From Chiloscyllium plagiosum (taxonomy: Eukaryota): a stretch of DNA of 64,000 nt. How positions within the stretch are numbered: the stretch's first letter is position 1; every line of letters begins with the position of its first letter. The stretch spans positions 8,967,306 to 9,031,305 of the forward strand of contig NC_057755.1 of assembly GCF_004010195.1 (NCBI RefSeq), written 5' to 3'. A program made the position numbers and the translations under genes. Below are positions 6,806 to 54,352 of this stretch, piece after piece. The notes beneath the pieces were generated by a model that saw only the letters and a program-made list of their open reading frames with translations, searched no databases and was not told where the DNA came from.

Positions 6806-7722
6806 TTATAACTTTTTCTTTCGACTGAACAACATCAGAATAAAGGACAATGGGAATGTCAAAACCTTCTTCAGTTCTTCCCTGAATTTCCTTTGTGTGG
6901 CTGTATAAATGCACACGTTACTGCATGAACTCAAATACATGAGCATGTAGCCAGTTTCAGTGGCAATGTAGGCAGGAGCTGTGTGATCACCTCGATAATG
7001 TGTAGCGTTCGTTATCCTCGAAGATAAGAAGCTCACAGCTGCTGTCAGCCAGAGAAGAATAAAACTTCCCGATATCGTGAAGAGTAAAATAATGGACCTT
7101 CTTCGACCTTCCATCTCTGGGTCTCTTTGACTCTCACTATTGCTTCCCCGGACAGCTCTGCGAGACCTATTGGCGACGACAATACGTCTGATGGTCAAGC
7201 AGTTAAATGTGAGTAGCAAAGAAAATGGAAGCCAAGGAACTAAAACACTTTGTAACCAGGAGAACGCTGTACCCCATGGTGAAGTGAAGAAGTTCAACTT
7301 AGTGCGACAGCCCCACTTTAAATGACCAATTGCTTGCTCAGGTTCATATGCAAACCAAAAGGGTATGTTCTCCAGGGAAACCAGGGCAGTGGTGATCACT
7401 ATCACTGCAGCTGCTATTCTAACTCTGCAATACTTTGTTTTCAGCCTCTCGCAACATATCGCTACGTATCGATCAAATGTGAACAAGACTGTGAACCATA
7501 CCACCATTAACAGTGTGACTGAGCTCATGTAGATCATAAACTTGCAAACTCCAGTGTAGGACAAAAACGAATGTGCAAAGTGGTAACTGAAAATGCGAAA
7601 CGCAGTTACGTTGAAGATCATGACCAGAAAAGCTGCTGTTGCCATGGCCACCATGTAGGCAGAGGTACAAGAGGAAAGGCCGCAGTTTCCTCGAGAGAGA
7701 ATGACCATTGTCAACAGGTTCG
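6806..7722 (-). CDS. GPCR gene 1, coding exon 2 (class A 7TM receptor, GPR139/GPR142-like; spliced product 328 aa)
   Basis: Uninterrupted ORF with hydrophobic helices, FTFDRYVAICC (DRY motif), TM3 Cys (GVCK) and ECL2 Cys (WGC), ILLWL in TM6 and SSCSNVCIY..TQRKFREE in TM7/helix 8. Acceptor tcttacAG precedes 7722 and gives (G)CG AAC CTG TTG = A-N-L-L, in frame with exon 1. Confidence 0.93.
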
Positions 7723-8037
7723 CTGTAAGACAAATGGATAGAAGGCATAAGCAGAATCTCTCGGAATAAAAGCCAACAAACAGTGTGGTGAACTACTGAA
7801 AGATTTGCGATGCAGAATTCTTCAGAATGATAATATTGATTAAATAAATGGAGTTTGGAAAGTGCATTATGGGAAAATAAATCTCTGTATGGTGAGAACG
7901 AAGGGACTGAGTTGACTTGTTTCCAGCACGCTGACTTGACCTGATGAAGTAGCCGCGCTCTGAAGTTTTGGAATTTCAAACAAACCTGTTGGACTGGAAT
8001 ATGAGTGATGATGCTGCTCCTTTGACAAGGTTTGGTT

Positions 8038-9129
8038 GTATGTTTTTTCGGATGGTTGTGAAAACACAGGTCCTGAAAAGTCTGTACTTTGATGGGTTAT
8101 AGGGCCAGTGTGATTACGGCAAACAAATATTGCCTCAGGAAAAAGACTTTCAAGTGTTTATATGTTAAAAAACTCTTGTACAATGAAAGCAAAATGTCCA
8201 GTTATCCCAGCTCAACATTTCTCTGGTTTGGTTTGGTCTGGCTGTTCACTGAAAGCATCAGGCTCTTCTAAAAGCTGCTGAACCCAAAGAAGCACATCCA
8301 TGCTGAGACTCTTCTCTCTCTGACATCTCTCCTGTAAGACCCTGTGTTTGACTTTAATTTTTATGTCAAGGGGTGTTTTAGGGACTGTTGCAAGTATTGG
8401 TGACAACATCATTACATTGGGATGCTGTGTTGGGTTTGGTGACGTTAGTCAGTATTCTGCTCTCTTCTGTTTGTATTTAATTCGGTAATTAGAGTCACAG
8501 AGAGCTACAGGACGGACACAGACCGTTTGGTCAATACGTCCAGTCTGACCCAGTACCCTCAATAAATTGAATTCCAAATGCCAGCATTTGGCCCATATCC
8601 CTGTAAACCCTTCCTATTCATATATCCACCCAGTTGGATTTAAATTTTGTAATTTTACCAGCCTTCATCAATGCCTCTGGCGGCTCATTCCACGCAGCAT
8701 CTACGTGATAAATGTTGCATATTTGGTCTTTTTAAAATCTTGTCCGTCTGACCTTAAACCTATATCCTGTCATTTTACTCTATCCATGGCCTTCGGGATT
8801 TTATAAAGCTCGACACGTCACCCCTCAGCCTCTGACGCTCCGGGGTATACAGCCCCAGCCTATTCAGCCTCTACTTATATCTCAAAGACTCCAAACTGGT
8901 CAACATCCTTTTCATGTTTTCTGAACATGTTCAAGTTTCACAACATCCTTCCAAAAGCAAGAAGAGCAGAACTCTTGTAAATAAATTCTGCTTTGTTTAA
9001 AAGTAAGTGGTTTGATCAGCTGCATCTCCTCTGTAATATTCACAATACATCTGCATAAAACAATGAGGAAAGTTAGAGTCTGGGCTAATTTGTTCCAGTG
9101 TTCTGATGGGGTCCGGCCTGATCCATAAC
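8038..9129 (+). mobile_element. Solo-LTR-like element (interrupted by a CR1 fragment) in the intron of GPCR gene 1
   Basis: Colinear with 51457-52069 (tagggccag..tgatta, ctctgacatctctcctgtaagacc, cttgtaaataaatt). TGT...ACA-like ends and an internal AATAAA. Confidence 0.65.
8490..8975 (-). mobile_element. CR1 LINE 3' fragment nested in an LTR-like element
   Basis: Reverse complement of the CR1 3' end seen at 17700 and 49075 (gtcacccctcagcctc...). Confidence 0.8.
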
Positions 9130-10299
9130 ATGTGGGACCACTTGGTTTGCCCCCTCCAGTCCAACAGCAGTACCTCCACATCATGGCAATTAACTCAAAA
9201 TGTGTGATAGAAGCTGTCCTGAAAATGGATCACATTTATGCAGATACAAAGAGTGACAGCCAAATCAAATCAGATTTCCTATTCTTGCATTTACAACACA
9301 GTAAAATGAAGATGCTTAATGATCCTCAAAATTGACCTCAACGGTCCCTGAATAGTCTTTTCGAATCGCCAGTGTTCGACTTTTATGATTAATCCAATAA
9401 GAAACACCAGGCCTTTTGCTCAAACAAAAGACTAAACAATTTAGTAAACATGCCTTAAACCAGCAGAGCAGTTTTAAGCAGCAAAATAATCTAAATAATA
9501 CCTCGGTTTTAACCCCAATCCTCTCTAATTATAACCTGTATTCTGACACCAAAACATCCGGACAAACACATTAAGGAATAAATGGAAAACATAAAAAAAA
9601 AGCTTGCTTAAACTGTTTCCACATTCCACAATATCACTGTCACCAGAGATTGTAACTTGTTGGGTTTCAGATCACACGGTGTGACAATACTCTCACTTCA
9701 AAAGGTTATTGTCTCTTGGTTATTTTTTTGTTTGTGCGTTGGGTGTAGGATAGCGCTGCCCGTCTGGCTACTTGAAGACCAATTCAGAAATCAACTTGTG
9801 ATGCTTTTGGGGTATTGCTTTCCAGTTGGATCAAAGGGAGCAGTCTGAATCTGGGAGTGTCCAGCTCTCACTGATCCAGAGATCTGGGGTTTTGGTGTTT
9901 TCAGTAAATCAGAAGCTGTGTGGGGTCTCAGAAGAGTTGGAAGCTTGAGTGAATGATTCCAGCTGCTAATATCTGTGAAAACTTTCCGGCTGCTTTATCT
10001 TGCTGCATTAGAGAACTGTATATAAGAAACTGTGTCTGAGTATGCCTTTTTATTTGGTCTACTTATGGAATGTTACTGTATTGAAACAACTAGTTAGGAA
10101 AAGGTACTGTATTCATTATTTGGTTGTTTCCCAATAGTTACGTTGTTCTAAATTCCTTTTCCTTTTGTGTGTACTCATTTTCTTAATATGAGTATGAACA
10201 TATCCTTGAACATTACACACTATGAACATGCGTCTTCTATTCCCTCAGCTGCACATCCGTGAAATGGTGTTTTATTTTGATTATCCTGTATTACAGAGA

Positions 10300-10600
10300 T
10301 ATTCACAGTATAAGAATAAATAGTAAGCCATTTAGGAATGAGATGAATTTGAAGTTCTTCACTCAGGGAGTTGTGAACCTACGGAATTTTCTCCCACAGG
10401 AAGCTGCTGTGGACAGTTCACTGGATATATTCTAGAGGGAGCTGGATGTGGCCCTGTGTCTAAAGCGATACAGAGGTATGGAGAAACGGCAGGAATGGGC
10501 TAGTGAATTTGTATATCAGCCATGATTCTATTGCATGGTGGGTCAGGATCGAACGGCTAATTGGACGACTCTTGTACCCATTTTCAATGTTTCTGTGTTC
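10300..10600 (+). mobile_element. CR1 LINE 3' end fragment
   Basis: ttcttcactcagggagttgtgaacct...cagccatgat...ggtgggtcagg, homologous to 22790-23050. Confidence 0.75.
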
Positions 10601-11462
10601 TACCCCAAAGAGCATCGATTCACACGAATTTGTGAAAAAAAACTGTGTACACTTTTTATGATGCAGAGATGGAACTCCTTTGTTAATGAAAACTAAAACA
10701 GCAGAAAAGCTCGCCTCAACTCATATTTTATTCAAAGTGTGAGTGAATGGTTGAGAACTCCTAATTTCTTCTATTTAAAGAAAAATAACTATTTGTTTAT
10801 CTCGCTCTAAAGTGAGCACTAAACAAAACTATTAACACACTGAGCACACTTCTTAAGCAATTCTTGTCTGTCCCCCAATTCTATAAATATGTGCTTCTAT
10901 CATACACTTATCAAACATTACATTAACTTATTATCAAGTCCACACAATTTCTGTCTTCTCCGCTACCTTCAGTCTTCTGTTTGCTGATCTCCCCAGGTGG
11001 TCTTCTTTCTTTCTACTGCTTTTACATGGAAACATACCTTTTGATAAACAGTGCGTTCTAATTTCTATGAGAGCAAGATGGTGATGGGCAGTTAGCTCTC
11101 TGGCTTTACGGCAGTTGCACTGTGATATAATGGCAATCACTCTGACCAATTATCAACATGCCTTGCTTTTACATGCCCCCAACATCATTCCCTGTCATTA
11201 GTCCGATCTTGTCAATACAATAAATTCTAACTCAGTTCGCTTTTCGCATCTTGAGCATCATTTCAATTAATTGATTAATTTGGAATTACCGTCAAAACGG
11301 CAACCAAAACTCAGGTATCCATTTAACAGCCAATTGCTGCAAGGATCCATTTTGGAAAGCCTGTCCCTGAGCTGCTCTGTTCTGGCCGCAGTGGCTCTGT
11401 GGCTGTATTTTAAATTTATTTTAAAAATTCAGAAAACTCTTTTTAGCTTAAAGTATGCCAAG

Positions 11463-11890
11463 TAAAAAAATCACACAACACCAGGTTATCGTCCAACAGG
11501 TTTATTTGGAAGCACTAGCTTTCAGAGCGCTGCTCCTTCATCAGGTGGTTGTTGAGTATAAGATCCTGCAGCACAGAATTGGCAGAAAAAGGTTACCGTA
11601 TGATGTAACAGAAATTACATATTGAAAAAGGCTTTAGGAAAGTTCTGGCATTTGCATATGAAGTAACTGAAACCAACATGCCCATTCCAAAAGATGGGGG
11701 ACTTAACAAGCAATGCCGTTTTTTCTCAATATATAATTTCAGTTACATCACACGGTAAACTTTTGCTATAAATTCTGTGTCGTCCAATCTTAGACTGTAC
11801 AACCTTTTGATGAAGGAGCAGCGCTCTGAACGCTAGTGCTTCCAAATAAACCTATTGGACTATAACCTGGTGTTGTGTGATTTTTAACTT
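11463..11890. mobile_element. Fold-back element made of inverted Penelope pseudo-LTR ends
   Basis: Arms of about 175 bp (11463-11635 and 11720-11890) are reverse complements of each other and match the terminus of the Penelope element at 62290-62460. Confidence 0.85.
11513..11547 (-). ncRNA. Minimal type I hammerhead ribozyme-like motif (Penelope-associated)
   Basis: Minus strand reads CAC CUGAUGA A GGAGC AGC GCUCU GAAA GCUA GUG: core boxes, a 5-bp stem II, a palindromic AGCU stem III and a 3-bp stem I. Confidence 0.6.
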
Positions 11891-11899
11891 GGTATACTT

Positions 11900-12425
11900 T
11901 CAGCTAGTGTTCCAGTTAAACCTGTTGGACGACGACCTGGTGTTGTGTGATTTTTAATTTTGTACACGCCAGCACAACACCAAATCATATCCTAAAGAGA
12001 ACAAGGACTCTTTTGATCTTGTAACATCGCCCATCACTTTATCCCTGCTCATGTTGTGTCGCTGGCCCCTGTGTACCTCACGGTTACTTATTACATAGAA
12101 CTCTTAAATCAAAACAGCATGTGTAGAATGATCAAAAAAATCAATTGATTGAATGAACACAAACTAATGTATGAGTACACAGTCTGTTGTAATGCAATTC
12201 CGATGAAGAGGGATCTGGGTGGATGCGTCGCTGACATTGGCAGGATAAAATTAAAAGTCACACAACACTAGGTGGTAATCCGACAGGTTTATTTGGAAGC
12301 ACTAGCTTTCAGAGCACTGTTAGGAGGAGCTCCTGCTTCCAAATAAACCTGTTGGACTATAACTGGGTATTGTGTGATGTTTTAACTTTGTCCACCCCAG
12401 TCCAACATGGACACCTCCAAATCAT
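11900..12425. mobile_element. Additional Penelope pseudo-LTR fragments (11900-11990 and a short inverted pair at 12250-12425)
   Basis: Same acaggtttatttggaagcactagc / ccaaataaacctgttggactata sequence as 11463-11890. Confidence 0.8.
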
Positions 12426-12499
12426 TTCCAGGATAAGTTGCGACAGTGGTTTGTAAATCACCACACATCCACGGTTCATTGCTGGGGGAAGTAGAGTAC

Positions 12500-13280
12500 A
12501 GATGCATGTAGCTTATGTTCAATGAGTGTCAGGCACTGCTTTCACCTCATTTGGAATATTGTGTTCAGTTGTAGGTACGTTCTAAAAGATGTGAAGTCAC
12601 TGAGGAGACAAGGATCTTGTTAAAAAAATGAAGAATTGGTGCAGAAGTAGGATATTCCGGCACTGAGGCCTGTTCAATCATTTGATGCAATCAGGACCGG
12701 ACCCCCTCAATAGCCACTTTAATGCCGACTCTCCATCTCCCCTCAACACATGACTTACCAAAAATCTTCCTCCTTCCTTAAAGTTATACATTGTCCCAAC
12801 ACATACTGCACACCACCGATGTGAATTGCACTGATTAAGTAAATACTTAATTAACTTCATTTTAAAACTGCTCTCCTTCATTCTAAAACTGTGACCTCTC
12901 ATTCCAGATTGTCCCACGTGATGAAACATCCTCTCTGCAGCTACTCTGCTGATTCTGTTTCACATCCAATATTCTTTGAACATTTCTCCCCTCACTCTTT
13001 AAATGTCCCAGAGAGTATAGGATGAATTTTTCTCCAACAGACTAATCTCTGAATTCAATTGAGTGAACTACCTTTGATCTGCGTCCAAAGTAAAATCATC
13101 CCTTCTTAGTTAATGGGACCAAAATAGTTATGCAGTAGTCCATGTTCAGACTCTGTCATGCTTTGTATCACTTCAGAAACATCTCTCTACTTTATACCCC
13201 ATTCCGTTTGCAATAAGAGAGAATATTCAAGTTGTTTTATTGAATACCTTGCTCTCCCTGAAAAGAGGAGGTCGCTGATT
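12500..13280. mobile_element. Old CR1 LINE fragments (short plus-strand piece, then a minus-strand piece)
   Basis: cctcatttggaatattgtgttcagtt on plus; GHSFRMK-like 3' ORF2 region on minus. Confidence 0.6.
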
Positions 13281-13359
13281 CATGCCCACGAAAGTTGGTG
13301 AAAGCTCACACTTACGAATGTACTCTTATTTGAAGGACCGAATCGCCTCCTCCACCCCC

Positions 13360-13662
13360 CATTTAGATTACAATCTCCTCAGTATGGAAACTGCCCATTT
13401 ATCCCCACACCGACCCACTGAAGAGTAACCCAGCCAGACCCATCACCTAGCATATCTTTACCCCTGACTAAAGCACCTAAAACTATTGGCAATTCACCTG
13501 ACGTGCACATCTTTGGATTGTGGGAGGAAACCGGAGCACCCGGAGGAAACCCACGCAGAAACGGGTAGAATGCCCAAACCCCACACAGACAGTTACCAGG
13601 GGTGGGAATTGAACAAAGTTCCCTGATGTTATGAGTAGCATTACCAGCCACCGTGCCACCCA
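13360..13662 (-). mobile_element. tRNA-derived SINE (HE1/V-SINE type)
   Basis: Homologous to 3735-4045. Confidence 0.85.
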
Positions 13663-13862
13663 CAATTTCCATGTTTCAATGTGATGTACATACCTCTTCA
13701 CTGAGCATATTGTTCGAAAGCTGTCACACAAACAGTAGCAGGGAGTTAGATATCCCTTTGTGCTCAGTATCATTGTGCTTAGTAATCATGTGAAATAGGT
13801 GAGAGTGACGCCACAGTGTGAGACAAGTGAATGTGTGAAACAACAGAATATTATTCACTTAC

Positions 13863-13932
13863 CAGGAATGCCAAAGGCTGCGAGAATTGGGTAGAAAATT
13901 ATCTTCATCTGAACTATTATTGACTGCACCAT
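13863..13932 (-). CDS. GPCR gene 1, coding exon 1 (MVQSIIVQMKIIFYPILAAFGIP, phase 1)
   Basis: 70-nt ATG-initiated exon ending G|gtaagt (consensus donor). It is homologous to exon 1 of gene 2 (YPILA..GIP) and its phase matches the exon 2 acceptor at 7722. Intron is about 6.1 kb. Confidence 0.9.
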
Positions 13933-15720: not shown

Positions 15721-15734
15721 GATTTCACGTGCTC

Positions 15735-16056
15735 ACACACACACACACACGCACGATCTCTCTCTCACATACACACATGAAAGCACACACTCTCCCTTTC
15801 TCTCATACACACTCTCTCTAACACACACACACATTCTCTAATACATAAAAGACTCTCTCACACAAAACTCTCTCTTTCACACACACACACTCTCACTCAT
15901 ACGCACTCTCTCACACACATGCACATGCACACACACTGTCTTACACACACATTCTCCCTCCCACTCTCACATACATATGCGCACGCGATCTCCCTCAGAC
16001 ACACACATTCTCTCTCCCTCTCTCACACACATGCTCTCTCTCTCTAACATACACAC
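15735..16056. repeat. Compound (CA)n/(CT)n microsatellite
   Basis: Read directly. Confidence 0.95.
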
Positions 16057-19135: not shown

Positions 19136-19139
19136 GAGA

Positions 19140-22100
19140 GAAGAGAGAGTCTTTAGCTCAGGAGTCTTCTACAAGGAGGTTGAGTGAAGTGATTACGCCA
19201 CAGTTGTAGAGGGTGAAGACATGACTGCCAAGCTGGTTCAGTGTGCTACGTGCTTGATGTGGGAGGTCAACGAGGTCAACGACTCTGGTGTGTCTGGCTC
19301 GTATAAGTGTGGAAAGTGTGTGCACGTTCATCTACAGACAGAGCATATTGCAGCACTGATGAAAGAACTCAAGGACCTTCGGCTCATCCGAGAGAATGAG
19401 ATCTTTCCGGACCGGACCTTCCGCGAGGTTATTACACTGACCATACCAGAAGAGAGCAAAGGAGAGCAGACGATGAGGAAGGCAGAGAGGAGACAGGTGC
19501 AAGAGACCGTGGGGGAAGTAACTGTCAGGAACAAAATGAATCTTTTGGAAACAGTAGAGACAGACGACACTGCCAGTCCACGAGGTGGCCAGGTCTGTCA
19601 ATCAAAAGTTGGCACAGAGGCAGAGTGGAAGAGTCGGACATCGCACAGAGCTGTGGTGATAGGGGAGTCCATAGTGAGAGGAACTGACCGGGGTTTCTGT
19701 GACAACAGGCGGGATTTAAGGATGGTGTGTTGCATTCCTGGTGCCAGGATTAAGGACATCGCAGACAGAGTGCAGGAAATCTTCAAGGGCGAGGGTGAAG
19801 AACCAGAGGTGGTGGTACATGTCGGCAAAAATGATGTCGGGAAGAAGAGGAGCGACATACTACAGCGGGACTTAAGAGAACTAGGAAGAAGGCTGAAAAG
19901 CAGGACGTCCAGAGTGGTTATCTCCGGTTTGCTTCAGTTCCTCGGGCTGGTGAGGCCAGAAACAGAGAGATAATGGACTTGAACGTGTGGCTGGGGAACT
20001 GGTGTAGGAAGCAAGGATTTAAATTCTTGGATCACTGGGGTATGTTTTGCGGTAAGTATAAATTATACAAAAGAGACGGTTTGCACCTTAATAGGTTAGG
20101 GACCAGTATTCTGGAAGGCAGGTTTGGTACTGCAACACAGCTACATTAAAACTAAGTAGCGGGGGTGGAGGGGAAAAAACTGCATGTTTAAGAAGGAAAT
20201 TGAAGGGAAAGTTAGAACAAGGGAAGTCAAGAAAGACTGTATCAATGAGGCAGAAAACTCAAAAAGGGATCATGCCGTAAGGCTGAGTGAAATAGAGGTT
20301 GATAGGAAGGGTGATGGCAGTAACAAATTAAAAATACTATATAATGAATGCACGAAGTATTAGAAATAAGATGGATGAGCTTGAGGCTCTTTTGGAAATT
20401 GGCAGCTACGATATTGTGGGGATAACGGAGACGTGGTTTCAAGTGGACATGGCCTGGGAAATGAATATTCAAGGCTATACATACTGTCGAAAGGACAGAT
20501 TGACGGGCAGAGGGGGTGGGTTGGCCCTGTTAGAAAGGGATGATATTCAGTCACTTGCAGAGGGGGACCTAGAATCAGGGGATGTAGACTCAGTATGGAT
20601 AGAGCTGAGAAATTCTAAGAGTAGAAAGACCCTCTTGGGAGGGACCCTCTACAGGCCCCTAAACAGTAATATTGATGTAGGGTATAAGTTGAATAAGGAG
20701 CTGAAATTGGTTACTACAGTTGTTATGGGGGAATTTCAGCATGGAAGTAGACTGGGAGAATCAGGATGGTATTGGACCTCAAGAAAGAGACTTTGTGGAG
20801 TGCCTCAGAGATGGATTCTTAGAACAGCTGGTGCTGGAGCTTACTAGGGAGTAGGTAATTCTAGATATGGTATTATGCAACAAACCAGAATTGATCAGGG
20901 ACCTCGAAGTGGAGGAGCCATTAGGAAGTAGTGACCATAATACAATAAGCTTCAATCTGCAATTTGAAAGTGAGAGGGTACAATCGGTAGTGACAATATT
21001 TCCGTTGATTAAAGGGAACTATGGAGCTATGAGAGAGGAGCTGGCCAAAGTTCAAATGGAGCAATACCTTAGTAGGGATGACAGTGGAGCAACAATGGCA
21101 GACATTTCTGGGTATAATGCGGAAGATGCAGGATCAGTTCATTCCAAAAAGGAAGAAAGATCCTAGGAGGAGGCATGGGTGGCCATGGCTGACGAGGGAA
21201 GTTAAGAAACATATAAAGTCAAAAGAGAAAAAGTATAACATAGCAAAGATAAGTGGGAAAACGGAGGACTGGGAAGCTTTTAAAGAACAACAGAGGATTA
21301 CTAAGAAGGAAATACGCAGAGAAAAAATGAGGTNNNNNNNNNNNNNNNNNNNNNNNNNNNNNNNNNNNNNNNNNNNNNNNNNNNNNNNNNNNNNNNNNNN
21401 NNNNNNNNNNNNNNNNNNNNNNNNNNNNNNNNNNNNNNNNNNNNNNNNNNNNNNNNNNNNNNNNNNNNNNNNNNNNNNNNNNNNNNNNNNNNNNNNNNNN
21501 NNNNNNNNNNNNNNNNNNNNNNNNNNNNNNNNNNNNNNNNNNNNNNNNNNNNNNNNNNNNNNNNNNNNNNNNNNNNNNNNNNNNNNNNNNNNNNNNNNNN
21601 NNNNNNNNNNNNNNNNNNNNNNNNNNNNNNNNNNNNNNNNNNNNNNNNNNNNNNNNNNNNNNNNNNNNNNNNNNNNNNNNNNNNNNNNNNNNNNNNNNNN
21701 NNNNNNNNNNNNNNNNNNNNNNNNNNNNNNNNNNNNNNNNNNNNNNNNNNNNNNNNNNNNNNNNNNNNNNNNNNNNNNNNNNNNNNNNNNNNNNNNNNNN
21801 NNNNNNNNNNNNNNNNNNNNNNNNNNNNNNNNNNNNNNNNNNNNNNNNNNNNNNNNNNGATGTAGTGTACCTGGACTTTCAGAAAGCCTTTGATAAAGTC
21901 CCACATAGGAGGTTAGTGAGCAAAATTAGGGCGCATGGTATTGGGGGCAAAGTACTGACTTGGGTTGAAAATTGGTTGGCTGACAGGAAGCAAAGACTAG
22001 TGATAAATGGCTCCCTTTTGGAATGGCAGGCGGTGACCAGTTGGGTACCGCAGGAATCAGTGCTGGGACCGCAGCTTTTTACAATATATATTAATGATAT

Positions 22101-32624: not shown

Positions 32625-35600
32625 TCTGTGCTGAGGGAGTGTTGCACCGTCAGAAGGTCATTACTGAGGGATTACCAGACTGTCGGAGGGTCAGTACTGA
32701 GGGATTATCGCACTGTCGGAGGGTCAGTACTGAGGGATTACCAGACTGTCGGAGGGTCAGTACTGAGGGATTACCGCACTGTCGGAGGGTCAGTGCTGAG
32801 GGATTACCAGACTGTCGGAGGGTCAGCGCTGAGGGATTACCGCACTGTCGGAGGGTCAGTGCTGAGGGATTACCAGACTGTCAGAGGGTTAGTACTGAGA
32901 GAGTACCGCACTATCGAAGAGTCCATGCTGAGGGAGTGCTGCACTGTCAGAGAGACAGTGCTGAGGAACTTCCACACTGTTGAAGAATCAGTACTGAGGG
33001 AGTGCCACACAGTCGGAGGGTCAGTGCTGAGGCAGTGCCGCACTGTCAGAGGGTCAGGGCTGAGGGAGTGCCGCACTGTCAGAGGGTCAGTACTGAGGGG
33101 TTTCCAGACTGTCAGAGGATCAGTACTGAGGGAATGCTGCACTATCGGAGCGTCAGTGGTTGGGGAGTGCCGTACAGTCAGAGGGTCAATACTAAGGGAA
33201 TGCCCCACTTTTGAAGGGTCAGTACTGAGAATGTTATGCTAGGTCGGAGGGTCAGCACTGTGTGAGTGCTGCACTGACAAAGAGTTAGTGCTGTGGGAGC
33301 GCCACACACTTGGAAGGTCAGTGAAGAGGGAAAGTTGCAGTGTCAGAGATTCAGTATTGAGGGAGTGCCGTACTGTCGGATTGTCAGCACTGAGGGAGTG
33401 CCACGCTATCAGAGGGTCAGTACTGAGGGAGTGCTGCACTGTCAGATTGTCAGCACTGAGGGAGTGCCACGCTATCAGAGGGTCAGTACTGAGGGAATGC
33501 TGCACTGTCAGAGGGTCAGTGGTTGGGGAGTGCCGTACAGTCAGAGGGTCAATACTAAGGGAATGTCCCACTTTTGAAGGATCAGTGCTGAGAATGTTAT
33601 GCTAGGTCGGAGGGTCAGCACTGTGCTGCACTGACAAGCAGTTAGTGCTGTGGGAGCGCCACACAGTTGGAATGTCAGTGAAGAGGGAAAGTTGCAGTGT
33701 CAGAGATTCAGTACTGAGGGAGTGCTGGACTGTCAGAGTATCAGTCTTGAGAGAGCGCTGCACAGTCAGATGGCCGGTACCATGGCTGTGACACTCTCTT
33801 GGAAGGTCTGTACTGAGGGTGTGCTGCACTGTCGGACGGTCAGTGCTGAGGGAGTGCCACAGTGTCGGAGGTTCAGTGCTGATGGAATGCTACGCTGTCA
33901 GTGGGTAGGTGCTGAAGGAATGCTACATTGCTGAAATGTCAGTAATGAATGAGTGAGGCACTTTCAGAATGTCAGTACTGAGGGAGTGCAGCATTGACAG
34001 AGGCTCAGTATTGAGGGAGTGCCGCACTGTCGGAGGGTCAGAGCTGAGGGAGTGACGCACTGTCAGAGGGTCAGTGCTGAGGGAGTGCTGCACTGTCAGA
34101 TTGTCAGCACTGAGGGAGTGCCACACTGTCAGTGGTTCATGGCTGAGGGAGTGCCACACTGTTGGATTGTCAGTGGTGAGGGAGTGATGCACTGTCGCAG
34201 GGTCAGTACTGAGGGAGTGATGCACTATTAGAGGGTCAGTGCTGAGCGAGTTCTGCTATGTCGGATGGTCAGTACTAAGGGAGTGCTGCACTGTCAGATC
34301 GTCAGTACTGTGGGAGAGCTGCGCTGTCAGAAGGTCACTGCTCAAGGAGCACTGTAAAGTCGGAGAATCAGTGTTCAGGGAATGTGATGCTATTGGAGAG
34401 TTAGTACTGAGGGAGTGCTGCACTGACAAACGGTCAGTGCTGTGGGAGCGCTGCATTGTCGGCACATCAGTACTGAGGGAGTTCCAATGATGGGGTCAGT
34501 CAAGAGGGTTTGCTGCAATGTCGGAGTCTCAGTACTGAGGGAGTGCCACACTACTGGATGATGAGTACTGAGGCAGTGCTGCACTGTCAGAATGTCAGCG
34601 CTGAGGGAGTGCCACACTGTCAGAGGGACGGTACTGTGGGTGCGCTGTACTCTCGGAAAGTCAGTATTGAGGGAGTTTCACACTGTTGGAGGGTCAGTGG
34701 TGAGGGACTGCCGCACTGTCAGAGGGTCAGATCAGAGGGCATGTCGCACTGTCAGAGGTGCTGTATTGGGAGGGCATTGCACAGTCGTAGGGTTAGTACT
34801 GAGAGAGTGTTGCAGAGCCTGAGGGTCAGTACTGTGGGAGTGCTGCACTATTGGGTGGTCAGTACTGAGTGGGTGAGGCACTTTTGGAACGTCAGTAATG
34901 AGGGAATGCTACACTATCAGAGGGTGAGTAGTCAGGGAATGCTACACTATTTGAGGATCAGTACTGTGAAAGTGCTGCACTGTCGGAGGGTCAGTACTGA
35001 GGGAGTGCGGCAATGTCAGTGGGTTAGTTCTGAGGCAGTGCCACACTGTAAGAGAGTCAGTGTTGAGGAACTGCCGCATTCTCAAGGGTTCAGGATGGAG
35101 AGAGTGCTACATTTTTAGAGGGCCACTACTGAGGGAGTGCCACGCAGTCGGAGGGTCAGTATTGAGGGAGTGCTGCACCGTAGGAGGGTCAGTACTGAGG
35201 TAGTGCTGCACTGATGGAGGGTCAGGACTGAGGGAGTGCTGCACTGTCAGAGGGTCAGTACTGAGGGAGTGATGCACTGTCGGATGATTAGTACTGAGGG
35301 AATAATGCACAATCAGATGGGGAATTTTGTGGGCATGCCACACTGTCCAAGGGTCAGTGCTGAGGAGCGCTGTGCCAATGGAGGATCAGTCCTGAGGGAT
35401 CGCCGCAGTGTCGGAAGTGTAGTACTGAGGGATCACCGCACTATTGGAGGGTCAGTAGTGAGGGAGGACCTTACTGTCAGAGGTTCACTGCTGAGGGAGT
35501 GCTGCACTGTCGAGGGGTCAGTGCTGAGGAAGTCATGCACTGCTGGAGAGTCAGTACTGGTGGAGCACCGCAATGTCTTAGTATTAATACTGAGAGAGGG

Positions 35601-38600
35601 CCGTACTGTCAGAGGGTCATTACTGAGGGAGGGCCGCACTGTCAGAGGGTCTGTACTGAGGGAGTGCCGCACTGCGGGAGGGTCAGTACTTAGGCAGTGC
35701 AGCACTCTCGGAGGGTCAGTGCTGAGGTAGTGACACACTGCTGCAAGGTCAGTACTGAACGAACGCCGCATTGTCTTAGCATAAGAGAGGATGGTTCTGT
35801 TGGAGGCTGTGTGCTGAGCGAGTGTCGTACACTCAGAGGGTCAGTGCTGAGGGACTGCTGCACTGTTGGAGGGTCAGTGCTGAGAGAGTGATGCACTGTC
35901 AGAGGAACAGTGTCCAAGGGTCTATGCTAAAGTAGGACTGCACTTCCGATAGATCTGCACTGAGGGTCAGATACACTTTTGATGGGTCAGTAATAAAGGA
36001 GTGTTAATATATTGGAGGGTAATTATCCAGAGAGCGCTACATTATCAGAGGGTAAGTAGTGAAAGTGTGCCACACTGTTGGAGAGTAAGTAGTGAGGGAG
36101 TGCTTTACTGTTGGAGGGTAAGCAAAGAGAGAGTGCCCTACTGTCGGAGTATAGTACTGATTATGTTCTGCTATAATGGACGGTCAGTACTGAGGAAGTG
36201 TGCACTGTCAGAAGATCATTAGTGAAGGAGCACCATAATGTTGGAAGCTCAGTCCTTAGGTAAGGCTACACTGTCGGAGGGCCAGTACTGAGGGGGTGAC
36301 CACTGCCAGAGGTTCAGAGCTGAGGGAGTGCTGCACAGTCACAGGGTCATTACCGAGGGAGTGCTGAACTGTCAGAGGGCCAGTACTCAGTGAGGGCCGC
36401 ACTGTCAGAGGGTCAGTACTGAGGGAGTGCCGCACTGTCAAAGGGTCAGTACTGAGGGAGTGCTGCACTGTCAGAAGTTCATTTCTGAAGGAGCACTACA
36501 ATATTGGAGGCTCGGTAGTGAGAGAATGCTACACTGCCGGTGGTTCAGTACTGAGGGAGTGCTGCACAGCCAGAGGGTCAGTGTTGTGGAAGTGTTGCAA
36601 GATGGGAATGTCAGAAGAGACAGAGGGCTATAATATTGTGGTGACACGACTGAGGGAGGTTTGCACTGTTGGAGGATCCGTGCTGAAGGATTGCCTCATT
36701 GTCCGAGGGTCAGTGCTGAGGTGGTGTTGCATTGTCTGAGGGTCAGCACGAGGGAGAGCAGCACTCCTGGAGCATCTACGCTGAGGGAGTGCCATCCAAT
36801 CGGAGGGTCAATGCTGAGGGACTGCCGCACTGTTGGAGGATCAGTACTGAGGGAGTGCTGTACTGTTGGAGGGTGAGGATTGAGGGAGGCCGCACTGTCA
36901 GAGGGTCACTACTGAGGGAATGCCATACAGTCGGAGAGTTAGTGCTGATAAAGTGATGTATTGTCGTATGGTCAGTACTAAGGGTATGCTGCACTGTCAG
37001 AGTGTCAATGCTGAGGGAGTGACACATTGTCGGAAGGTCAGTGCTGAGGGAGTGATGCGGTATCAGAGGATCAGTACTGAGTGAGTGCAGCACTGTTTGA
37101 GGGTCAGTGCTGAGGCAGCGACACAGTGTGCAAAGGTCGGTGCTGAGGGAGGGTTGCACAGCACACAGAGCAGCAGTGGGGGTCTGCTGCACTTTTGATG
37201 GTCCAGTACTGAAGGAATGCTAATATATTGGAGGGTAATTACCGAAGGATCGTTAGACTGTCAGTGCTGAGTACGTGCTTCACTGTTAGAGTGTCAGTAC
37301 TGAGGGAGCACTGCACTGTCAGAGCGTCAATGCTAAATGGAGTGCCGCACTGTCAAAGGGTCAGTGGTGAGGGGGTGCCACACTGTAGGAGGGCAAGTGC
37401 TGAGTGAGTGCCCTAATGTCAGAGGGTCAGTACTGAGGGAGTCTGCATTATCAGAATGTCATTACTGAAGGAGCACGGCAATGGTGGAGACTCAGTAATG
37501 GTGGAGTGCCACACTGTTGCAGCGTCAGTGCTGAGAGGGTGCTGCACAGTCAGAAGGCAATTTCTGAAGGAGCACTGCAATATTGGAGGCTCGGTAGTGA
37601 GAGAATGCTGCACTGCCAGTGGTTCAGTACTGAGGGAGTGCTGCACGGCCAGAGGGTCGGTGTTGTGGGAGTATCGCAAGATGGGAGGGTAAGTAGAGAC
37701 TGAGGGCTACAATATTATGGTGTCACTACCGAGGGAGTGTTGCACTGTTGGAGGATCAGTGCTAAAGGAGTGCCGCATTGTCCGAGGGTCAGCTTTGAGG
37801 GGGTGTTGCATTGTCTGAGTGTCAGCACGTAGAGAATGCTGCACTGTTGGAGGATCTGTTCTGAGGGAGTGCCATGTAGTCAGAGGGTCATTGCTGAGGG
37901 CCTGCCGCTCTATCGAAGGGTCAGTACTGAAGAAGTGCCATAATATCAGTGGGTCAGCGCAAAGGGAGTGCTGCTCTGTCGGCGGTTCTGTGCTGAGGGA
38001 GTGCTGCACTGTTTGTGGGTCAGTATTGAAGGAGTGCGTACTGTCAGAGGGTCTGTGCTGAGGGATTGCTGCACTGTCAGAGTGTCGGTGCCGAGGGACT
38101 GCCGCACTGTCAAGGGTCAGTACTGAAGGTATGCCGTAATGTCAGAGGGTCAGCGCAGAGCAAGTGATGCTCTGTCGGAGGGTCTGTGCTGAGGCAATGC
38201 TGCACTGTTAGTTAGTCAGTAGTGAGGGAGTGCTGCACTGTTTGTAGGTCAGCATTGAAGGAGTGCTATTCTGTTGGAGGGTTTGTGCTGAGGTAATGTC
38301 TCACAGTCAGAGGGTTAGTGCTGAGGGAGTTCTGCACTTCTGAGTTTCAGCACTGAGGAAGTGCTGCACTGTTGGAGGGTCAGTGCTGACAGAGTGATGC
38401 ACTATCGGAATATCAGTACTGAGGGTGTGCCATCGTGTCCAAGGGTCTGTGCTGAGGGGAGACTGCATTGTCTACGGATCAGCACTGAGGGTCAGCTTCA
38501 CTATTGATCCGTCAGTACTGAAGTAGTGGTACTATATTGGAGGTATCTACTGAGGGACACCACATTATAAGAGAGTTAGTGCTGACACACTGTCACAGTG

Positions 38601-39295
38601 TGAGTGCTGAGGGATTGCTGCCCTGTTGGAATGTCAGTGGTGAGGGCATCCTGCACTGTCGGAGGTCAATACTGATGGCGTTCTGTAATGTTGGACTGTC
38701 AGTACTGAGGGAGTGCTGCATTGTCAGAGGGTCAGTGCTGAGGGAGTGCTGCACTGTCAGAGTGTCAGTACAGAGGGAGTGCAACAATGTCAGAGGCTCA
38801 GTGCTGACGGAGTGCTGCACTGTCAGAGGGTCAGTGCTGAGGGAGTGCCGCACTGTCAGAGTGCCACACTGGCGCGGGGTCTGCACTGAGGGTGTGCCAC
38901 ACTATCAGATAGCTAGTGCTGAGGGACCGCCGCACTGTCAAAGGGTCAGTACTGAGGGTGTACCACACTGTCATCGGGTCAGTGCTGCAGGAGCGTCACA
39001 CTGTTTGAGGGTCAGTACTGAAGGACTGCCGCACTCTCGGAGGGTCAGTACTGAGGGACTTCCGCACTCTCGGAGGGTCAGTACTGAGCAGTTGCTACAC
39101 TGATGGACGGTCAGTGCTGAGGGAGAGTCGTACTGTCAGATGGTCAGTAGTGAGGGAGTGCTGCATTGTCAGAGAGTAGGTATTACTGGAGTGCCGCACT
39201 GTCAGAGGGTCAGTGTTGAGGTGTTGCTGCACTTTCAGAGGCTTAGTGCTGAGGGAGTGCCGCACTATCACAGGGCCACTGTTGAGGGGGTGTCA
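32625..39295. repeat. 33-bp tandem satellite array, about 200 diverged units (consensus about TGAGGGAGTGCCGCACTGTCAGAGGGTCAGTAC)
   Basis: 33-bp period read directly; translated ORFs show 11-aa periodicity (RECRTVRGSVL). Confidence 0.97.
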
Positions 39296-50417: not shown

Positions 50418-50423
50418 TATAAG
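50418..50423 (+). promoter_or_regulatory. Candidate TATA box of GPCR gene 2
   Basis: TATAAG about 70 nt upstream of the ATG at 50495. Positional evidence only. Confidence 0.35.
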
Positions 50424-50494
50424 ACGCCTCTTCTGGCACAGGTGAGCACTTGTCTGAGTCTCTCACGTCGAAAAGAAAATCTCTCCTCAGAAAA

Positions 50495-50564
50495 ATGGAA
50501 CGACCAATAATTCTGCTGATAAAGGAGATTTATTATCCAATTCTCGCAACCATTGGTATTCCGG
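50495..50564 (+). CDS. GPCR gene 2, coding exon 1 (MERPIILLIKEIYYPILATIGIP, phase 1)
   Basis: aaaATGG start context, 70 nt long, ends G|gtgaga. Homologous to gene 1 exon 1 and supplies the first half of TM1. Confidence 0.9.
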
Positions 50565-51456
50565 GTGAGACCTGTTTGAACTTTTTATTGTCATTTTGTA
50601 TCAGTTGATTCCCAACCTATTCTTGAAAAACTATAATGTGTCACTGATCTCAACACTGCATTGGCTGACGTTTCTCATATTGACCTGTCCACCCACATTG
50701 TCCTCATTTCACTGAACTGAGAAATGTACAGATGGTGACATATTTTCAAGATTTGGAAAACGCTAAAAGGGGCTGACAAAGGAGGCACGGAGAGGATGGT
50801 TCATCATATGGGGAAGTCTGGATCAAGATTTCGCAGGGTGTGTGGAGGGGCAGGAGATTTTAAACAGAAGCGAGGAAAAATTCATTTTCTCAAAGGGCCG
50901 TGAATCTGTGGAATTGTCTGCTTCAGCGTGTCGTAGAAGCTCGAACATTACATAAACTTTAAGGAGAAAATTGCAGATTTGTAAGTTGTCATGTGTGGAA
51001 GGTTATGGAGAGTAAAATGGTGTTGAGGCTAAGAGGAGATCAGTTATGATCATGTTGTATGGCACAGAAGGTTCTTGGAGCTGAACGTCCTTCTTCTGCT
51101 TCTAGTTCTTATTTTCTTAGAAAGATGATCTCATGGTTGCTTGGATACCTTTCTCAATAAGGATCTCATTAGAATGTTTCAATGCACATTTCCTCGTGAT
51201 GGCTTGAAAACTCTCTGATTGCCCTGGTCCGTACAAACACAATCGCAACAAAAATCACATAACGTGAAATTGAATCCTCAACTTAATCTGACTATGAAGA
51301 TTTTGCCCTTAGTGTTTGTTTCAGTGCCAGAAATGTAAAGATGTTATCCGACGTTATATGGAGAACATTTCAAACTTTTTCTGCAAATTATATATGCAAT
51401 TTCCACTGCTTCCTTCTGTGATGCTGCTGCTCCTTGAATAAGTCTATGCTGTCCAT

Positions 51457-52069
51457 GTCTTTTCTTCCAGACATGTTGTAAAAGGCACGGAGTCTGAAAT
51501 GTCTGCGTTTGAATAGGTTTTAGGGCCAGTTTGATTATAGCTAATAGATACTGCCTCAGGAAGAAGGCTTCAATGTTTTTTTTTGTTTTAAAGCAAAACA
51601 TCTGCGCAGTTAAAAAGGGAACCAATTCTCCCAGATCAGCTTATCTCTGGTTTAGCTTAGTACAACTATTCACTTAAAGGAGGCAGGCAGCTGTAAGAGC
51701 TGCTGGGCGCAAAGAAGCAGGGCCAGGCTGATCCTCCTCTTTCTCTGACATCTCTCCTGTAAGACCATGCGTTTGATTTTGCCTTTTGTTCCAAGGGGTG
51801 TTTGTGGGGATTGTAGCTAGTATTTGGATCAGCATCGCTAATTTGGGATTATATGTTGGGTTTGGAAAGGTTACGTTATTCTGTACTCTGTTCTCTTTTG
51901 AGTTTCATTCGGTAATCTTGTAAATAAATTGTTTTACTTAAACGACGTCATTTGACCAACTGCATCCCTCCTAGAATATCTGCTTTACACCTGCTTAAAA
52001 CAGCTACCAAAGTTAGGGGCCAGGCGAATTTCCTGAAATGATTTGAGGGGGCCTAATAGTCCATGACAA
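51457..52069 (+). mobile_element. Solo-LTR-like element in the intron of GPCR gene 2
   Basis: Homologous to 8038-9129. About 600 bp, non-coding, ends in ACA. Confidence 0.65.
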
Positions 52070-53456
52070 TATCCTTCTCCGTTATCACCGCTGTTGTTCA
52101 GTGTACATCCATGGCACAAAGCGTATGTAGCTTCTCGATTTATAGTTAAAAACCATTCAAAGTGGTTACATCGTCACCTAATTTCCCTTGAACACTCAAG
52201 CATCAAATGTTTTTTTCGATACTGTTTGCTTTTTAATTTAATTTCATAGAATTGCATTATGTCGTACAATGGAGACAGCAAGACATCTTCAATGTAATAA
52301 GCTGAAGAAATTGGCGAGTCAATGGGAAGGCATTGGCTGAGGTTGATTGATTTTCCTTCAAAACTGTTCCTATGTTGTAATGTCAATGTCACTCCACGTA
52401 CATTCAGGTTTCAGATGTTAAGACTGATTTGCTTATGCAGAAAAATAATTATTTGCATACAAATGTTATATTTGTCCGCGTTATGTCTTTGCCAATGATG
52501 AGAGAGACAGAGGGCCAATTCACTATCAATATGAAGAGTTGTACTCTATCGAGTAAAGTTGTATTTTTACAAATTGACTAATCATGAGAAAATATATAGA
52601 GTGAAAACAAATATGGAAGAAGGTTCATTGGTTGAATGTTTGTGAACATGATTTTTCGATTTATAGACAAAAAAATCTGAAGTTTTCAGATATTCACCCA
52701 AACATTCAAGCATCACTTGCAAATGATTTTTTATTGTTATTGTTGCAGTGCACATTTTAAACCCAACTTCATGGAACTGAGTTTTGTCTTACAGTAGAGG
52801 GGGCAAGATATTTTCAATTTAATAAACAGGAGAATTTGTTTGGTTTGACTGATTTTTCTTAAACTCTTCATGTATAATAATGTCGTTCATATTCCATTAG
52901 CATTCGAGTTTAAGATATCAAAACTGATGTGTTTCCATAGAAAAATAATCGACCGGCAAATGTAACTTTTGTTTGTTTTATGGTTTGCCAATGATGATAA
53001 AGGTATAAGATTCTGGTCATAGCATTCCACCAATATGATGAGTTGTGCTCTTTTTTAAAAGTTGTAATTTTTGTCAATCAAATGGCCTTGAATGGGGCAT
53101 TGAGACACATAAAATGTTATTATGATTAAAGGACGTTCTCCATCAGAATTTTCATGTCACAACTTTGAACAATGGGCATTACTTTTGGAAAGTGTTTTTA
53201 ATTGTGAGCAGTTCTGGAATCCACACTATTAGGGTTGAGGGCGGGGCGGTTGGTGTGATGGTTCTGCTTGCACTGGCAATAGTAGTGAGGAGATTTACCA
53301 GATAACAGAGATTGGTTTGAGTGGAGTTTCAGCATCAAACAGAACAAGAGTGAGAGGAATTTAATGAACATCTAATAAATTGATATAGACAATTTAGAAA
53401 GGAAGCACTTTCCACTTGTTGAAGTAATGATGAACTCTCTTGTGTTTTGCTTGCAG

Positions 53457-54352
53457 CAAACAAGATGACGATTGTTATTCTTGTACGAGGAAACTGTGGC
53501 CTCTCGAAATGTATCTCTGTCTACATGCTTGCCATGGCAACAGCAGACCTACTGGTCATAATCATTAATGTACTGGTTTACAACATTCTTACGTATCACT
53601 TTCCATTCTCCCTTCTGTCTCATACCCATATTTGTAAGTTTATTTTTTACCTGGGTTGTGTTATGCTGAATTTGTCAGTATGGTTCACTGTTGCGTTCAC
53701 TTTTGATCGCTTTGTCATCATCTGCTGTCCAAAGTTTAAGACAAAGTATTGTACTGTGCGAATTCCAGTCACAATTATAAGCATGATTTGTGTCCTCATG
53801 TGGATCAAGGAATTCCCCATTTTCTTTGCATATGAACATGAATACATTGTGAACAATGTGAAATGGAACTGCCAGTCAAGTGTGGCATTCTTTTCTTCAG
53901 TTGCAGGAGGAGTGTACATCTGGTTTTTCAGCATCTGTTTAGTTTGGCTTCCTTTCATTTTAATTGCTTTGTTTAATGCATTGACAGTCAGACATGTGCT
54001 AGTGACTAGCAAAGCCCGCAGAGTGCTTCGGACTCACAGAACTGACAATCAATGTGATCCCGAGATGAAGAATCGAATGAAATCCATTGTTTTCCTCTTT
54101 GCTATCTCCGGGAGTTTCATTCTCTTGTGGCTGACAACTGTCATAAATCTTGTAATGACCAGAATCACAAATCCCAATTATTACCGAGGAGACTTTGGAA
54201 ATCCAACGTACATCATTGTTGAAACAGGAGCCATGTTGAGGTATTTGAGTTCATGTTCAAACACGTGCATCTATGCTGTGACTCAGAGAAAATTCAGAGA
54301 AGAGATTCTGGATATTCTGAAATCGCTCTGTGCATTCAATGCAAAGAGATGA
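53457..54352 (+). CDS. GPCR gene 2, coding exon 2 (class A 7TM receptor, GPR139/GPR142-like; spliced product 321 aa)
   Basis: Acceptor tgtgttttgcttgcAG, then (G)CA AAC = A-N. Motifs LAMATADLL (TM2), ICK, FTFDRF, WNC, WLPF, ILLWL and SSCSNTCIY..TQRKFREE. Clear paralogue of gene 1. Confidence 0.93.

What the first reader, a model, noticed from the sequence alone, without database searches (positions are those of the whole stretch)
6806..54352. Divergent pair of intact, N-terminus-less GPR139-like GPCR paralogues with identical exon architecture: candidate expanded receptor repertoire
Seen: two intact two-exon genes in head-to-head orientation, with start codons about 36.5 kb apart. Both have a 70-nt phase-1 first exon that splits TM1 at GIP|AN and almost no extracellular N-terminus. 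Intracellular motifs are shared (RGNCGLS, FTFDR, KTKYC, DPEM, ISGSFILLWLT, TQRKFREE) while much of TM3-ECL2-TM5 differs. Established: GPR139 and GPR142 are aromatic amino-acid-sensing class A receptors, single-copy in mammals. Inference: these genes belong to a clustered, lineage-expanded family with a conserved signalling face and a diversified ligand face, the pattern seen in chemosensory or immune receptor repertoires.
Basis: partly seen in the sequence, partly recalled or inferred. Interest (0 to 1): 0.7.

Follow-up and report, generated by a model that had tools for sequence, protein, structure and literature searches.

The report
Unrecognised shark receptor repertoire, mislabelled GPR139
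These two intact shark genes belong to a large family of orphan cell-surface receptors that sharks and rays carry in dozens of copies with highly variable predicted binding pockets, likely forming an overlooked chemical-sensing repertoire rather than copies of the brain receptor GPR139 whose name databases give them.

Summary
All 146 best named homologues are from sharks and rays, with at least 36, 31 and 20 distinct copies in three species, often on one chromosome. They are not GPR139/GPR142 orthologues: bamboo shark has those genes separately, human GPR139 scores only 66 bits against the family profile, and its pocket residue R6.51 is present in 0 of 148 members. The nearest non-elasmobranch relative found is a salamander orphan gene. 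Predicted pocket positions are 1.5-1.8 times more variable than other helix positions, against 0.63 in an apparently single-copy sister clade of equal divergence. Ligand and tissue are unknown, no exon junction read was seen, and this genome could not be counted. Ten literature searches found no description. Best reading: an undescribed birth-and-death receptor repertoire for varied outside ligands, most likely chemosensory.

The parts
13863..13932 (-). Gene A coding exon 1 (70 nt; ATG at 13932; N-terminus and outer half of TM1)
   Evidence: matches the first 23 aa of many homologues
7723..13862 (-). Gene A intron, 6,140 nt, GT-AG, phase 1
   Evidence: splicing inferred, no reads laid on this gene
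6806..7722 (-). Gene A coding exon 2 (rest of TM1 to stop); lacks D2.50 (Ala), a state shared with its carpet-shark relatives
50495..50564 (+). Gene B coding exon 1 (70 nt; ATG at 50495)
   Evidence: same register as zebra shark P0122/P0123
50565..53456 (+). Gene B intron, 2,892 nt, GT-AG, phase 1; contains dispersed repeats at about 51450-52080
53457..54352 (+). Gene B coding exon 2; 93% identical to Chiloscyllium plagiosum XP_043539096.1
   Evidence: covered from 53459 by contigs of runs X1 and X2
21334..21858 (.). Assembly gap (525 N) between the two genes
32631..39275 (.). Degenerate 33-bp tandem array in the intergenic spacer

Best explanation
Genes A and B are two old, intact members of an orphan class A GPCR family expanded to dozens of clustered copies in sharks and rays, and the family likely works as a sensory repertoire in which each paralogue would bind different outside, water-borne small molecules or short peptides through its variable predicted pocket and would signal through one shared G-protein output, most likely in chemosensory cells. 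Shown: gene structure, family size (lower bounds), clustering on shared contigs, phylogenetic position, pocket-versus-G-face variability, purifying selection. Inferred: that the variable positions line a ligand pocket (generic class A numbering), that ligands differ between paralogues, Gq/Gi-type coupling (by analogy to GPR139 only), and the chemosensory site of expression. About 0.65 that it is a ligand-diversified repertoire of some kind; about 0.45 that it is chemosensory in the broad sense (nose, taste, skin or gut).
For: Expansion: 146 of 146 distinct best hits are elasmobranch; 37, 33 and 24 from Heterodontus, Pristiophorus and Heptranchias, of which 36, 31 and 20 stay separate at 90% identity; 134 clusters at 50% identity with E<=1e-30, many fragmentary; 17 of 17 looked-up members of the expanded clade are elasmobranch. 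Clustering: 24 of 37 Heterodontus proteins share one contig length, 11 of 11 in Scyliorhinus canicula; nearest relatives of A and B share one contig in C. plagiosum and in Stegostoma. Pocket/other-helix entropy ratio 1.54 (148 seqs), 1.49 (50 distant representatives), 1.63-1.81 within single species, p<=4e-4; G-face entropy about a third of pocket entropy; control clade 0.63 at mean identity 0.58 versus 0.60. Positions fixed in the control (3.33, 5.42, 6.51) are among the most variable in the family. Constraint: A versus B dN 0.38, dS 1.78; 18 amino-acid-changing and 22 silent among the 40 listed differences to run X1, pN/pS about 0.23 (classed by hand). Exon 2 of a B-like gene is covered from the splice acceptor onward in two runs guessed to be RNA, with zero depth on most unique intron bins. 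No N-terminal ligand domain. Known shark chemoreceptor repertoire is small: 65 genes in catshark (PMC6368271, section read).
Against: No tissue, cell type or ligand evidence at all. Paralogues compared with orthologues will show more pocket change under relaxed constraint as well as under selection; no site-wise dN/dS above 1 was shown and A-B dS is near saturation. Sequences are not independent, so the p-values overstate certainty. The catshark olfactory top-50 list held no GPCRs and the known olfactory expression is dominated by V2Rs (PMC11979771, PMC10116579; passages). Elasmobranch monophyly against the salamander gene is weak (81/56). The exon junction was not seen and exon 1 had no depth in X1 or X2. 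Relatives in this branch include peptide receptors with endogenous ligands (PMC8557429, passages).
Confidence: 0.45

Rival explanations
1. Immune or barrier-tissue repertoire: leukocyte or mast-cell-like receptors that read microbial or host-damage peptides, in the way FPRs and MRGPRs do in mammals.
For: The same pocket-variable, clustered, birth-and-death pattern. Cartilaginous fishes are reported to lack MAS1 and its relatives (PMC8455134, passage), so an analogous role is open. A single member reaches word depth 5-30 in two bulk runs guessed to be RNA, tissue not known.
Against: No hit for the gene name in supplements of a bamboo-shark immune single-cell paper (4 files) or a spleen/kidney transcriptome (12 of 15 files); weak, because these genes may be listed under LOC or other names. 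No acidic N-terminus as in chemokine receptors.
Confidence: 0.25
2. Endocrine or neural receptors for a family of endogenous peptides or metabolites, subdivided among tissues, as in the protostome MIP/FMRFamide/myosuppressin/proctolin receptor expansion.
For: The GPR139/142 branch is sister to an expanded protostome peptide-receptor group (PMC8557429, passages); fold and sequence neighbours in the PDB are peptide receptors; ECL2 hairpin and disulfide cysteines are kept.
Against: Species-specific bursts of near-identical-age copies would need an equally fast-evolving ligand family; receptors for endogenous ligands usually keep the pocket, as the control clade does.
Confidence: 0.15
3. Largely redundant copies produced by segmental duplication in repeat-rich chromosome regions, with relaxed constraint and no new ligand specificities; some may be signalling-weak.
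For: P6.50 is present in 3 of 148 and P7.50 in 40 of 148 members, and gene A lacks D2.50; the spacer is full of retroelement fragments and a satellite; many database entries are fragments.
Against: Variation is concentrated at pocket positions while the G-protein face stays conserved; dN/dS well below 1; A-type and B-type lineages are kept across carpet-shark species and have relatives in distant shark orders; the single-copy control clade also lacks P6.50 and P7.50.
Confidence: 0.13
4. The genes are the shark GPR139 and GPR142 orthologues (or their direct duplicates) and sense tryptophan and phenylalanine.
For: RefSeq names; GPR139 is the best PDB hit of the family profile, E 2e-17; W6.48 kept in 146 of 148 and H5.42 in 70 of 148.
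Against: gpr139 and gpr142 are listed separately for C. plagiosum and group with human genes (PMC13689627 supplement rows); gene A alone does not hit GPR139 at E<=0.001; R6.51 0/148, F3.33 7/148, N7.39 6/148; A and B keep only W6.48 of these.
Confidence: 0.02

Closest known systems
GPR139 / GPR142 (human orphan class A receptors; GPR139 structure 7VUG)
   Same: Best PDB match of the family profile (66 bits); similar TM1 (YY...G.PAN), W in TM3, W6.48; no large N-terminal domain. A shared TM1 intron position is recalled, not tested.
   Different: Separate true orthologues exist in bamboo shark; R6.51, F3.33, N7.39 not kept; C3.25 present in 147 of 148 members but aligned to a non-cysteine in GPR139; multi-copy rather than single-copy.
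Salamander orphan 'probable GPR139' (Pleurodeles XP_069092602.1, Ambystoma, Lissotriton)
   Same: Sister to or nested with the elasmobranch family (100/99); shares FTFDR, the LxYC motif of ICL2, DPEM-RR-S and the short N-terminus.
   Different: 34% identical to A and B; one cluster of 5 entries from 3 species, no sign of expansion in what was retrieved.
Apparently single-copy gnathostome orphan clade (Latimeria XP_005988539.1; sharks, fishes, amphibians, reptiles); may be one of the 'GPR210' sets of Rinne et al. (PMC6504862)
   Same: Next relative (31-33% identity); short N-terminus; C3.25 and ECL2 cysteine; T at 6.50; also auto-named GPR139.
   Different: About one protein per species in the list, including its own shark copies; invariant pocket with R6.51, E2.61, D3.29. 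Link to GPR210 not verified.
Vertebrate chemoreceptor and sensor repertoires (OR, TAAR, V1R/ORA, V2R/OlfC, T2R; FPR, MRGPR)
   Same: Works-like resemblance: clustered paralogues, lineage-specific bursts, variable pocket, conserved inner face, short N-terminus.
   Different: Only Pfam 7tm_1 is hit; coding intron in TM1; origin in the GPR139/peptide-receptor branch; sensory expression unshown.
Protostome MIP/sex-peptide, FMRFamide, myosuppressin, proctolin receptors and nematode Srw-type receptors
   Same: Sister group of the GPR139/142 branch, independently expanded (PMC8557429); Srw/Srx clusters appear among feature neighbours.
   Different: 22-26% identity for the unnamed invertebrate-type hits; defined peptide ligands; outside the chordate clades in the tree.

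Membership tests
Class A (rhodopsin-like) GPCR | 7tm_1 domain above the curated cut-off and seven-helix fold | tested here: met
   69 and 68 bits versus cut-off 30.5; model pLDDT 77, seven helices plus helix 8, Z 24.4, rmsd 3.2 over 275 residues to class A receptors
Class A (rhodopsin-like) GPCR | N1.50, D2.50, D/E-R3.50, C3.25-ECL2 cysteines, W6.48, N7.49, Y7.53 | tested here: met
   All present in B; A has Ala at 2.50; P6.50 and P7.50 absent in both
GPR139/GPR142 orthologues | Being the species' own GPR139 or GPR142 gene (one each) | tested here: not met
   C. plagiosum has gpr139 and gpr142 in an orthogroup with the human genes; the family has many members per species
GPR139/GPR142 orthologues | Pocket residues F3.33, H5.42(5x43), W6.48, R6.51, N7.39(7x38) | tested here: not met
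   Residues from PMC5430874 (abstract) and PMC8807744 (first part of text); mapped by the alignment: 7, 70, 146, 0 and 6 of 148; A and B keep W6.48 only
GPR139/GPR142 orthologues | Grouping with GPR139/GPR142 in a tree | not tested
   No true GPR139 or GPR142 sequence was retrieved, so trees lack them; only scores bear on it
GPR139/GPR142 orthologues | Activation by L-Trp/L-Phe; habenula or islet expression | not testable with these tools
   needs assay and tissue data
Wider GPR139-related branch (with amphioxus and fish orphans) | GPR139 is the best human structural-sequence match; amphioxus 'GPR139' and fish orphans are nearest non-shark relatives | tested here: met
GPR210A/B sets of Rinne et al. 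2019 | Orthology to the named coelacanth Ensembl proteins | not testable with these tools
   Ensembl ids could not be mapped to retrieved proteins; that survey has no shark
OR, TAAR, V1R, V2R, T1R/T2R chemoreceptor families | Family-specific domain or nearest-neighbour relationship | tested here: not met
   Only PF00001 at E<=0.01; no such receptor among named homologues or top PDB hits
Sensory receptor repertoire (functional kind) | Many clustered paralogues with lineage-specific turnover | tested here: met
   in other elasmobranchs; not countable in this genome
Sensory receptor repertoire (functional kind) | Pocket more variable than the rest of the helices | tested here: met
   ratio 1.5-1.8 versus 0.63 in control
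Sensory receptor repertoire (functional kind) | Positive selection at pocket codons | not tested
   only two coding sequences available; dS near saturation
Sensory receptor repertoire (functional kind) | Sparse, mutually exclusive expression in sensory cells | not testable with these tools
   runs carry no tissue label; about one read on exon 2 in 2% of single-cell run X7

The most novel reading that the evidence does not exclude
Sharks and rays have built a further vertebrate chemoreceptor family from the GPR139/neuropeptide-receptor branch, as large as or larger than their V2R set, hidden under the database name 'probable GPR139'; it would help explain keen shark chemosensation with few known receptors and would parallel the independent sensory expansions of this branch in invertebrates.
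Probability: 0.3. Interest if true: 0.9.

Novelty: new variant of a known kind. Interest (0 to 1): 0.66.

Why it matters
Cartilaginous fishes are described as poor in GPCRs and in olfactory receptors (PMC8455134; PMC6368271: 65 chemoreceptor genes in catshark, 35 of them V2R). A family with at least 36 distinct members in one shark, counted from truncated hit lists, rivals the largest known shark chemoreceptor family, yet repertoire surveys query only the known families and would miss it. Whether it is sensory or immune can be tested at once with existing catshark and bamboo-shark tissue atlases. It also shows that the label 'probable GPR139' covers several distinct vertebrate lineages, which matters for anyone using these annotations.

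Tried and rejected
Own genome not held, so no genome-wide count. Six-frame HMM scan of the window: no third copy. Shared non-coding sequence between A and B flanks: only dispersed-repeat-like matches, no promoter block examined further. A bidirectional-promoter reading was rejected: 36.5 kb apart with retroelement fragments, a satellite and a gap between. Run search: no RNA holder listed. Lay on gene B: no listed joint at the predicted intron (17 joints not shown); single-cell run X7 gave about one read on exon 2 in 2% of the run, uninformative. Fold searches gave generic peptide-type class A receptors; GPR139 was not among the 50 rows shown in either list, which is inconclusive. The first 87-row tree finished only in quick mode; a 39-row tree with bootstraps replaced it. 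Literature: ten full-text searches found no description of the family; term searches in PMC8455134, PMC11979771, PMC10116579 and bioRxiv 10.64898/2026.08.31.747588 found no GPR139, and PMC12208981 no shark. Supplements: no hit in PMC8455134 (12 of 24 files), PMC11372145, PMC13188829, PMC4067322 (12 of 15 files); those of PMC11979771 (catshark tissue atlas, the most relevant) and PMC10924892 could not be read. Subscription papers are not covered. Earlier scan findings: none.
Full report
Observation. The window holds exactly the two genes described. Gene A runs on the minus strand (exon 1 13932-13863, exon 2 7722-6806; 328 aa) and gene B on the plus strand (exon 1 50495-50564, exon 2 53457-54352; 321 aa). 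Both first exons are 70 nt, both introns are GT-AG and phase 1 at GIP|AN, in-frame stops precede both ATGs, and the ATGs are 36,563 bp apart. Both hit only Pfam 7tm_1, and exon 2 of A folds as a class A bundle (pLDDT 77; Z 24.4, rmsd 3.2, 275 aligned). A profile scan of all six frames found no further copy. The spacer contains retroelement fragments, a 6.6-kb 33-bp tandem array and a 525-N gap, so 'head-to-head' carries no regulatory implication and depends partly on scaffolding.

Source and family size. Gene B is 93% identical to a Chiloscyllium plagiosum protein, which points to a bamboo-shark-like species. Searches with exon 2 of A and B returned 1,073 and 1,294 clusters at 90% identity; only the best 120 of each were listed, 146 distinct proteins, and all 146 are from sharks and rays of 16 species, most named 'probable G-protein coupled receptor 139'. 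The unlisted remainder could not be broken down and may include other families. Within these truncated lists Heterodontus has 37, Pristiophorus 33 and Heptranchias 24 proteins, of which 36, 31 and 20 remain separate at 90% identity over the helical core, so isoforms or alleles do not explain them. A profile search of 50%-identity representatives found 134 clusters at E<=1e-30, many of them fragments; 17 of 17 looked-up members of the expanded clade were elasmobranch, including skates and rays, on several further chromosomes. No chimaera protein appeared among the named entries seen, which is not evidence of absence. The window's own genome is not held, so its copy number is untested.

Position in the tree. 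The name GPR139 is a best-hit label. Gene A alone does not hit GPR139 in the PDB at E<=0.001; the family profile does, as best hit, at 66 bits, while the same profile gives 212 bits to a salamander protein, 206 to a coelacanth protein and 133 to an amphioxus-type protein (different libraries, bit scores compared). The coelacanth protein defines a separate clade with about one protein per species across sharks, bony fishes, amphibians and reptiles, itself only a 70-bit match to human GPR139. In a 39-row tree the elasmobranch family and the salamander gene form a clade at 100/99; elasmobranch monophyly against the salamander gene is weak (81/56); A and B fall in different well-supported carpet-shark subclades with relatives in distant shark orders, so they are old paralogues, not a recent tandem pair (the 87-row quick tree agrees). 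No true GPR139 or GPR142 sequence was retrieved, so their placement was not tested; however, supplement rows of PMC13689627 list gpr139 and gpr142 for C. plagiosum in one orthogroup with the human genes. Rinne et al. (PMC6504862, passages) noted unnamed 'GPR210' sets near GPR139/142 in coelacanth, gar and fishes without sampling sharks; I could not map them to my proteins.

Architecture. 72 of 82 homologues with a locatable TM1 motif have the same very short N-terminus, and 1 of those 72 has an N-glycan sequon in the first 22 residues. The salamander, coelacanth and amphioxus proteins are as short, and several database models in the sister clades switch to unrelated sequence exactly before the x-N of TM1, from which I infer that the intron position is ancestral for the branch. 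That human GPR139 has the same intron is recalled, not checked. These two features are therefore inherited, not innovations of the pair.

Pocket versus signalling face. Using generic class A numbering, I compared entropy at 31 pocket-type, 21 G-protein-face and 123 other helix positions (TM1-3 and TM5-7; position sets from general GPCR knowledge). Pocket/other was 1.54 for 148 close members, 1.49 for 50 distant representatives and 1.63, 1.72 and 1.81 within three single species (p<=4e-4; sequences are not independent); G-face entropy was about a third of pocket entropy. In 95 proteins of the single-copy clade (hits under 300 aa dropped), at nearly the same mean identity (0.58 versus 0.60), the ratio was 0.63. 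Between A and B alone, 11 of 31 pocket and 12 of 21 G-face positions are identical, but the first half of ICL3 is the least similar window of the core. Of the GPR139 residues that mutagenesis and structure tie to agonists (PMC5430874 abstract; PMC8807744 first third of text), the family keeps W6.48 (146 of 148) and partly H5.42 (70), but not R6.51 (0), F3.33 (7) or N7.39 (6); A and B keep only the tryptophan. Trp/Phe sensing in the GPR139 manner is thus unlikely. C3.25 and the ECL2 cysteine are nearly invariant; P6.50 and mostly P7.50 are absent, and gene A's subclade has lost D2.50.

Function and expression. A versus B gives dN 0.38 and dS 1.78. Contigs of two runs guessed to be RNA (X1, X2; a related organism, about 94% identical) cover exon 2 of B from 53459, two bases inside the predicted acceptor, to just past the stop, with zero depth on most unique intron bins; exon 1 had no depth and no junction was listed. 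This fits a spliced transcript of B's orthologue or a close paralogue but does not prove the junction. Of the 40 differences listed for X1 (of roughly 54), 18 change the amino acid and 22 are silent, pN/pS about 0.23 with 694 and 197 sites (classed by hand): constrained, not a pseudogene, and no sign of overall positive selection. No tissue is known.

Mechanism. The best-supported model is a birth-and-death repertoire: one ancestral orphan gene, kept at low copy in salamanders, multiplied in elasmobranchs; the inner face stays compatible with one G-protein pathway while pocket residues turn over so that paralogues would recognise different ligands entering from outside, with no N-terminal capture domain. 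I put about 0.65 on a ligand-diversified repertoire, split 0.45 chemosensory (broad sense) and the rest overlapping with an immune role (0.25 as a rival), then endogenous-peptide subfunctionalisation (0.15) and near-neutral redundancy (0.13). The choice of chemosensation over immunity rests on analogy and on the small known shark repertoire (65 genes in catshark; PMC6368271 section), not on direct data; against it, reported shark olfactory expression is V2R-dominated.

Novelty. The genes are in RefSeq, but ten full-text searches of the open library and term searches in five relevant papers found no description of this family or its expansion; subscription papers and the unreadable catshark atlas supplement could hold one. 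Papers seen: PMC8455134, PMC11979771, PMC6504862, PMC8557429, PMC12208981, PMC10116579 and the bioRxiv preprint as term passages; PMC8807744 first of three parts; PMC6368271 abstract and one section; PMC5430874 abstract; PMC13689627, PMC11372145, PMC13188829, PMC4067322, PMC8455134 as supplement searches; PMC10924892 listing only. As a kind of system a variable GPCR repertoire is known; this one has a different origin from all catalogued vertebrate repertoires, hence 'new variant of a known kind', interest 0.66.

Noticed in passing
window 32631-39275 and 29533-29802: Degenerate 33-bp tandem array of about 6.6 kb, strongly G-skewed, giving many spurious repeat ORFs; a short copy lies 3 kb upstream.
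   Followed up: partly
window 53377-54593 versus 50200-53405: In run X3 the pieces over exon 2 of gene B differ more from the window (14/195, 5/191, 16/656) than upstream and intron pieces (2/271, 4/645, 1/231, 5/535, 2/565): a close paralogue or a divergent allele.
   Followed up: no
gene A residue 54 (exon 2, about 7631): Ala replaces the sodium-site D2.50; shared by five carpet-shark relatives (P0001-P0004, P0029), so a subclade trait that may alter activation.
   Followed up: partly
P0236 clade: A conserved, apparently single-copy orphan GPCR of sharks, fishes, amphibians and reptiles with an invariant charged pocket (E2.61, R3.28, D3.29, R6.51, D7.36); some models are fused to TMEM183A annotations; no bird or mammal in the 120 rows listed.
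   Followed up: partly
P0230 cluster: Salamanders retain the closest non-elasmobranch relative of the expanded family; a candidate for deorphanising the ancestral receptor.
   Followed up: partly
P0145, P0161 cluster: A whale-shark model carries a PF03727 hit besides 7tm_1, and a C. punctatum cluster has a 'RING-type' member: probably gene-model fusions with neighbouring sequence.
   Followed up: no
window 50410-50423: TATA-like and homeodomain-like words about 75 bp upstream of gene B's ATG; significance untested.
   Followed up: no
window about 4967-6081, 17694-22787, 28325-28774, 49067-49456, 56917-59081: Decayed non-LTR retrotransposon (reverse transcriptase-like) fragments, judged by eye from ORF translations.
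   Followed up: no
window 14731-15732 (-): A 333-codon stop-free frame 0.8 kb upstream of gene A with no Pfam hit; the opposite strand is closed in all frames. Unexplained.
   Followed up: partly
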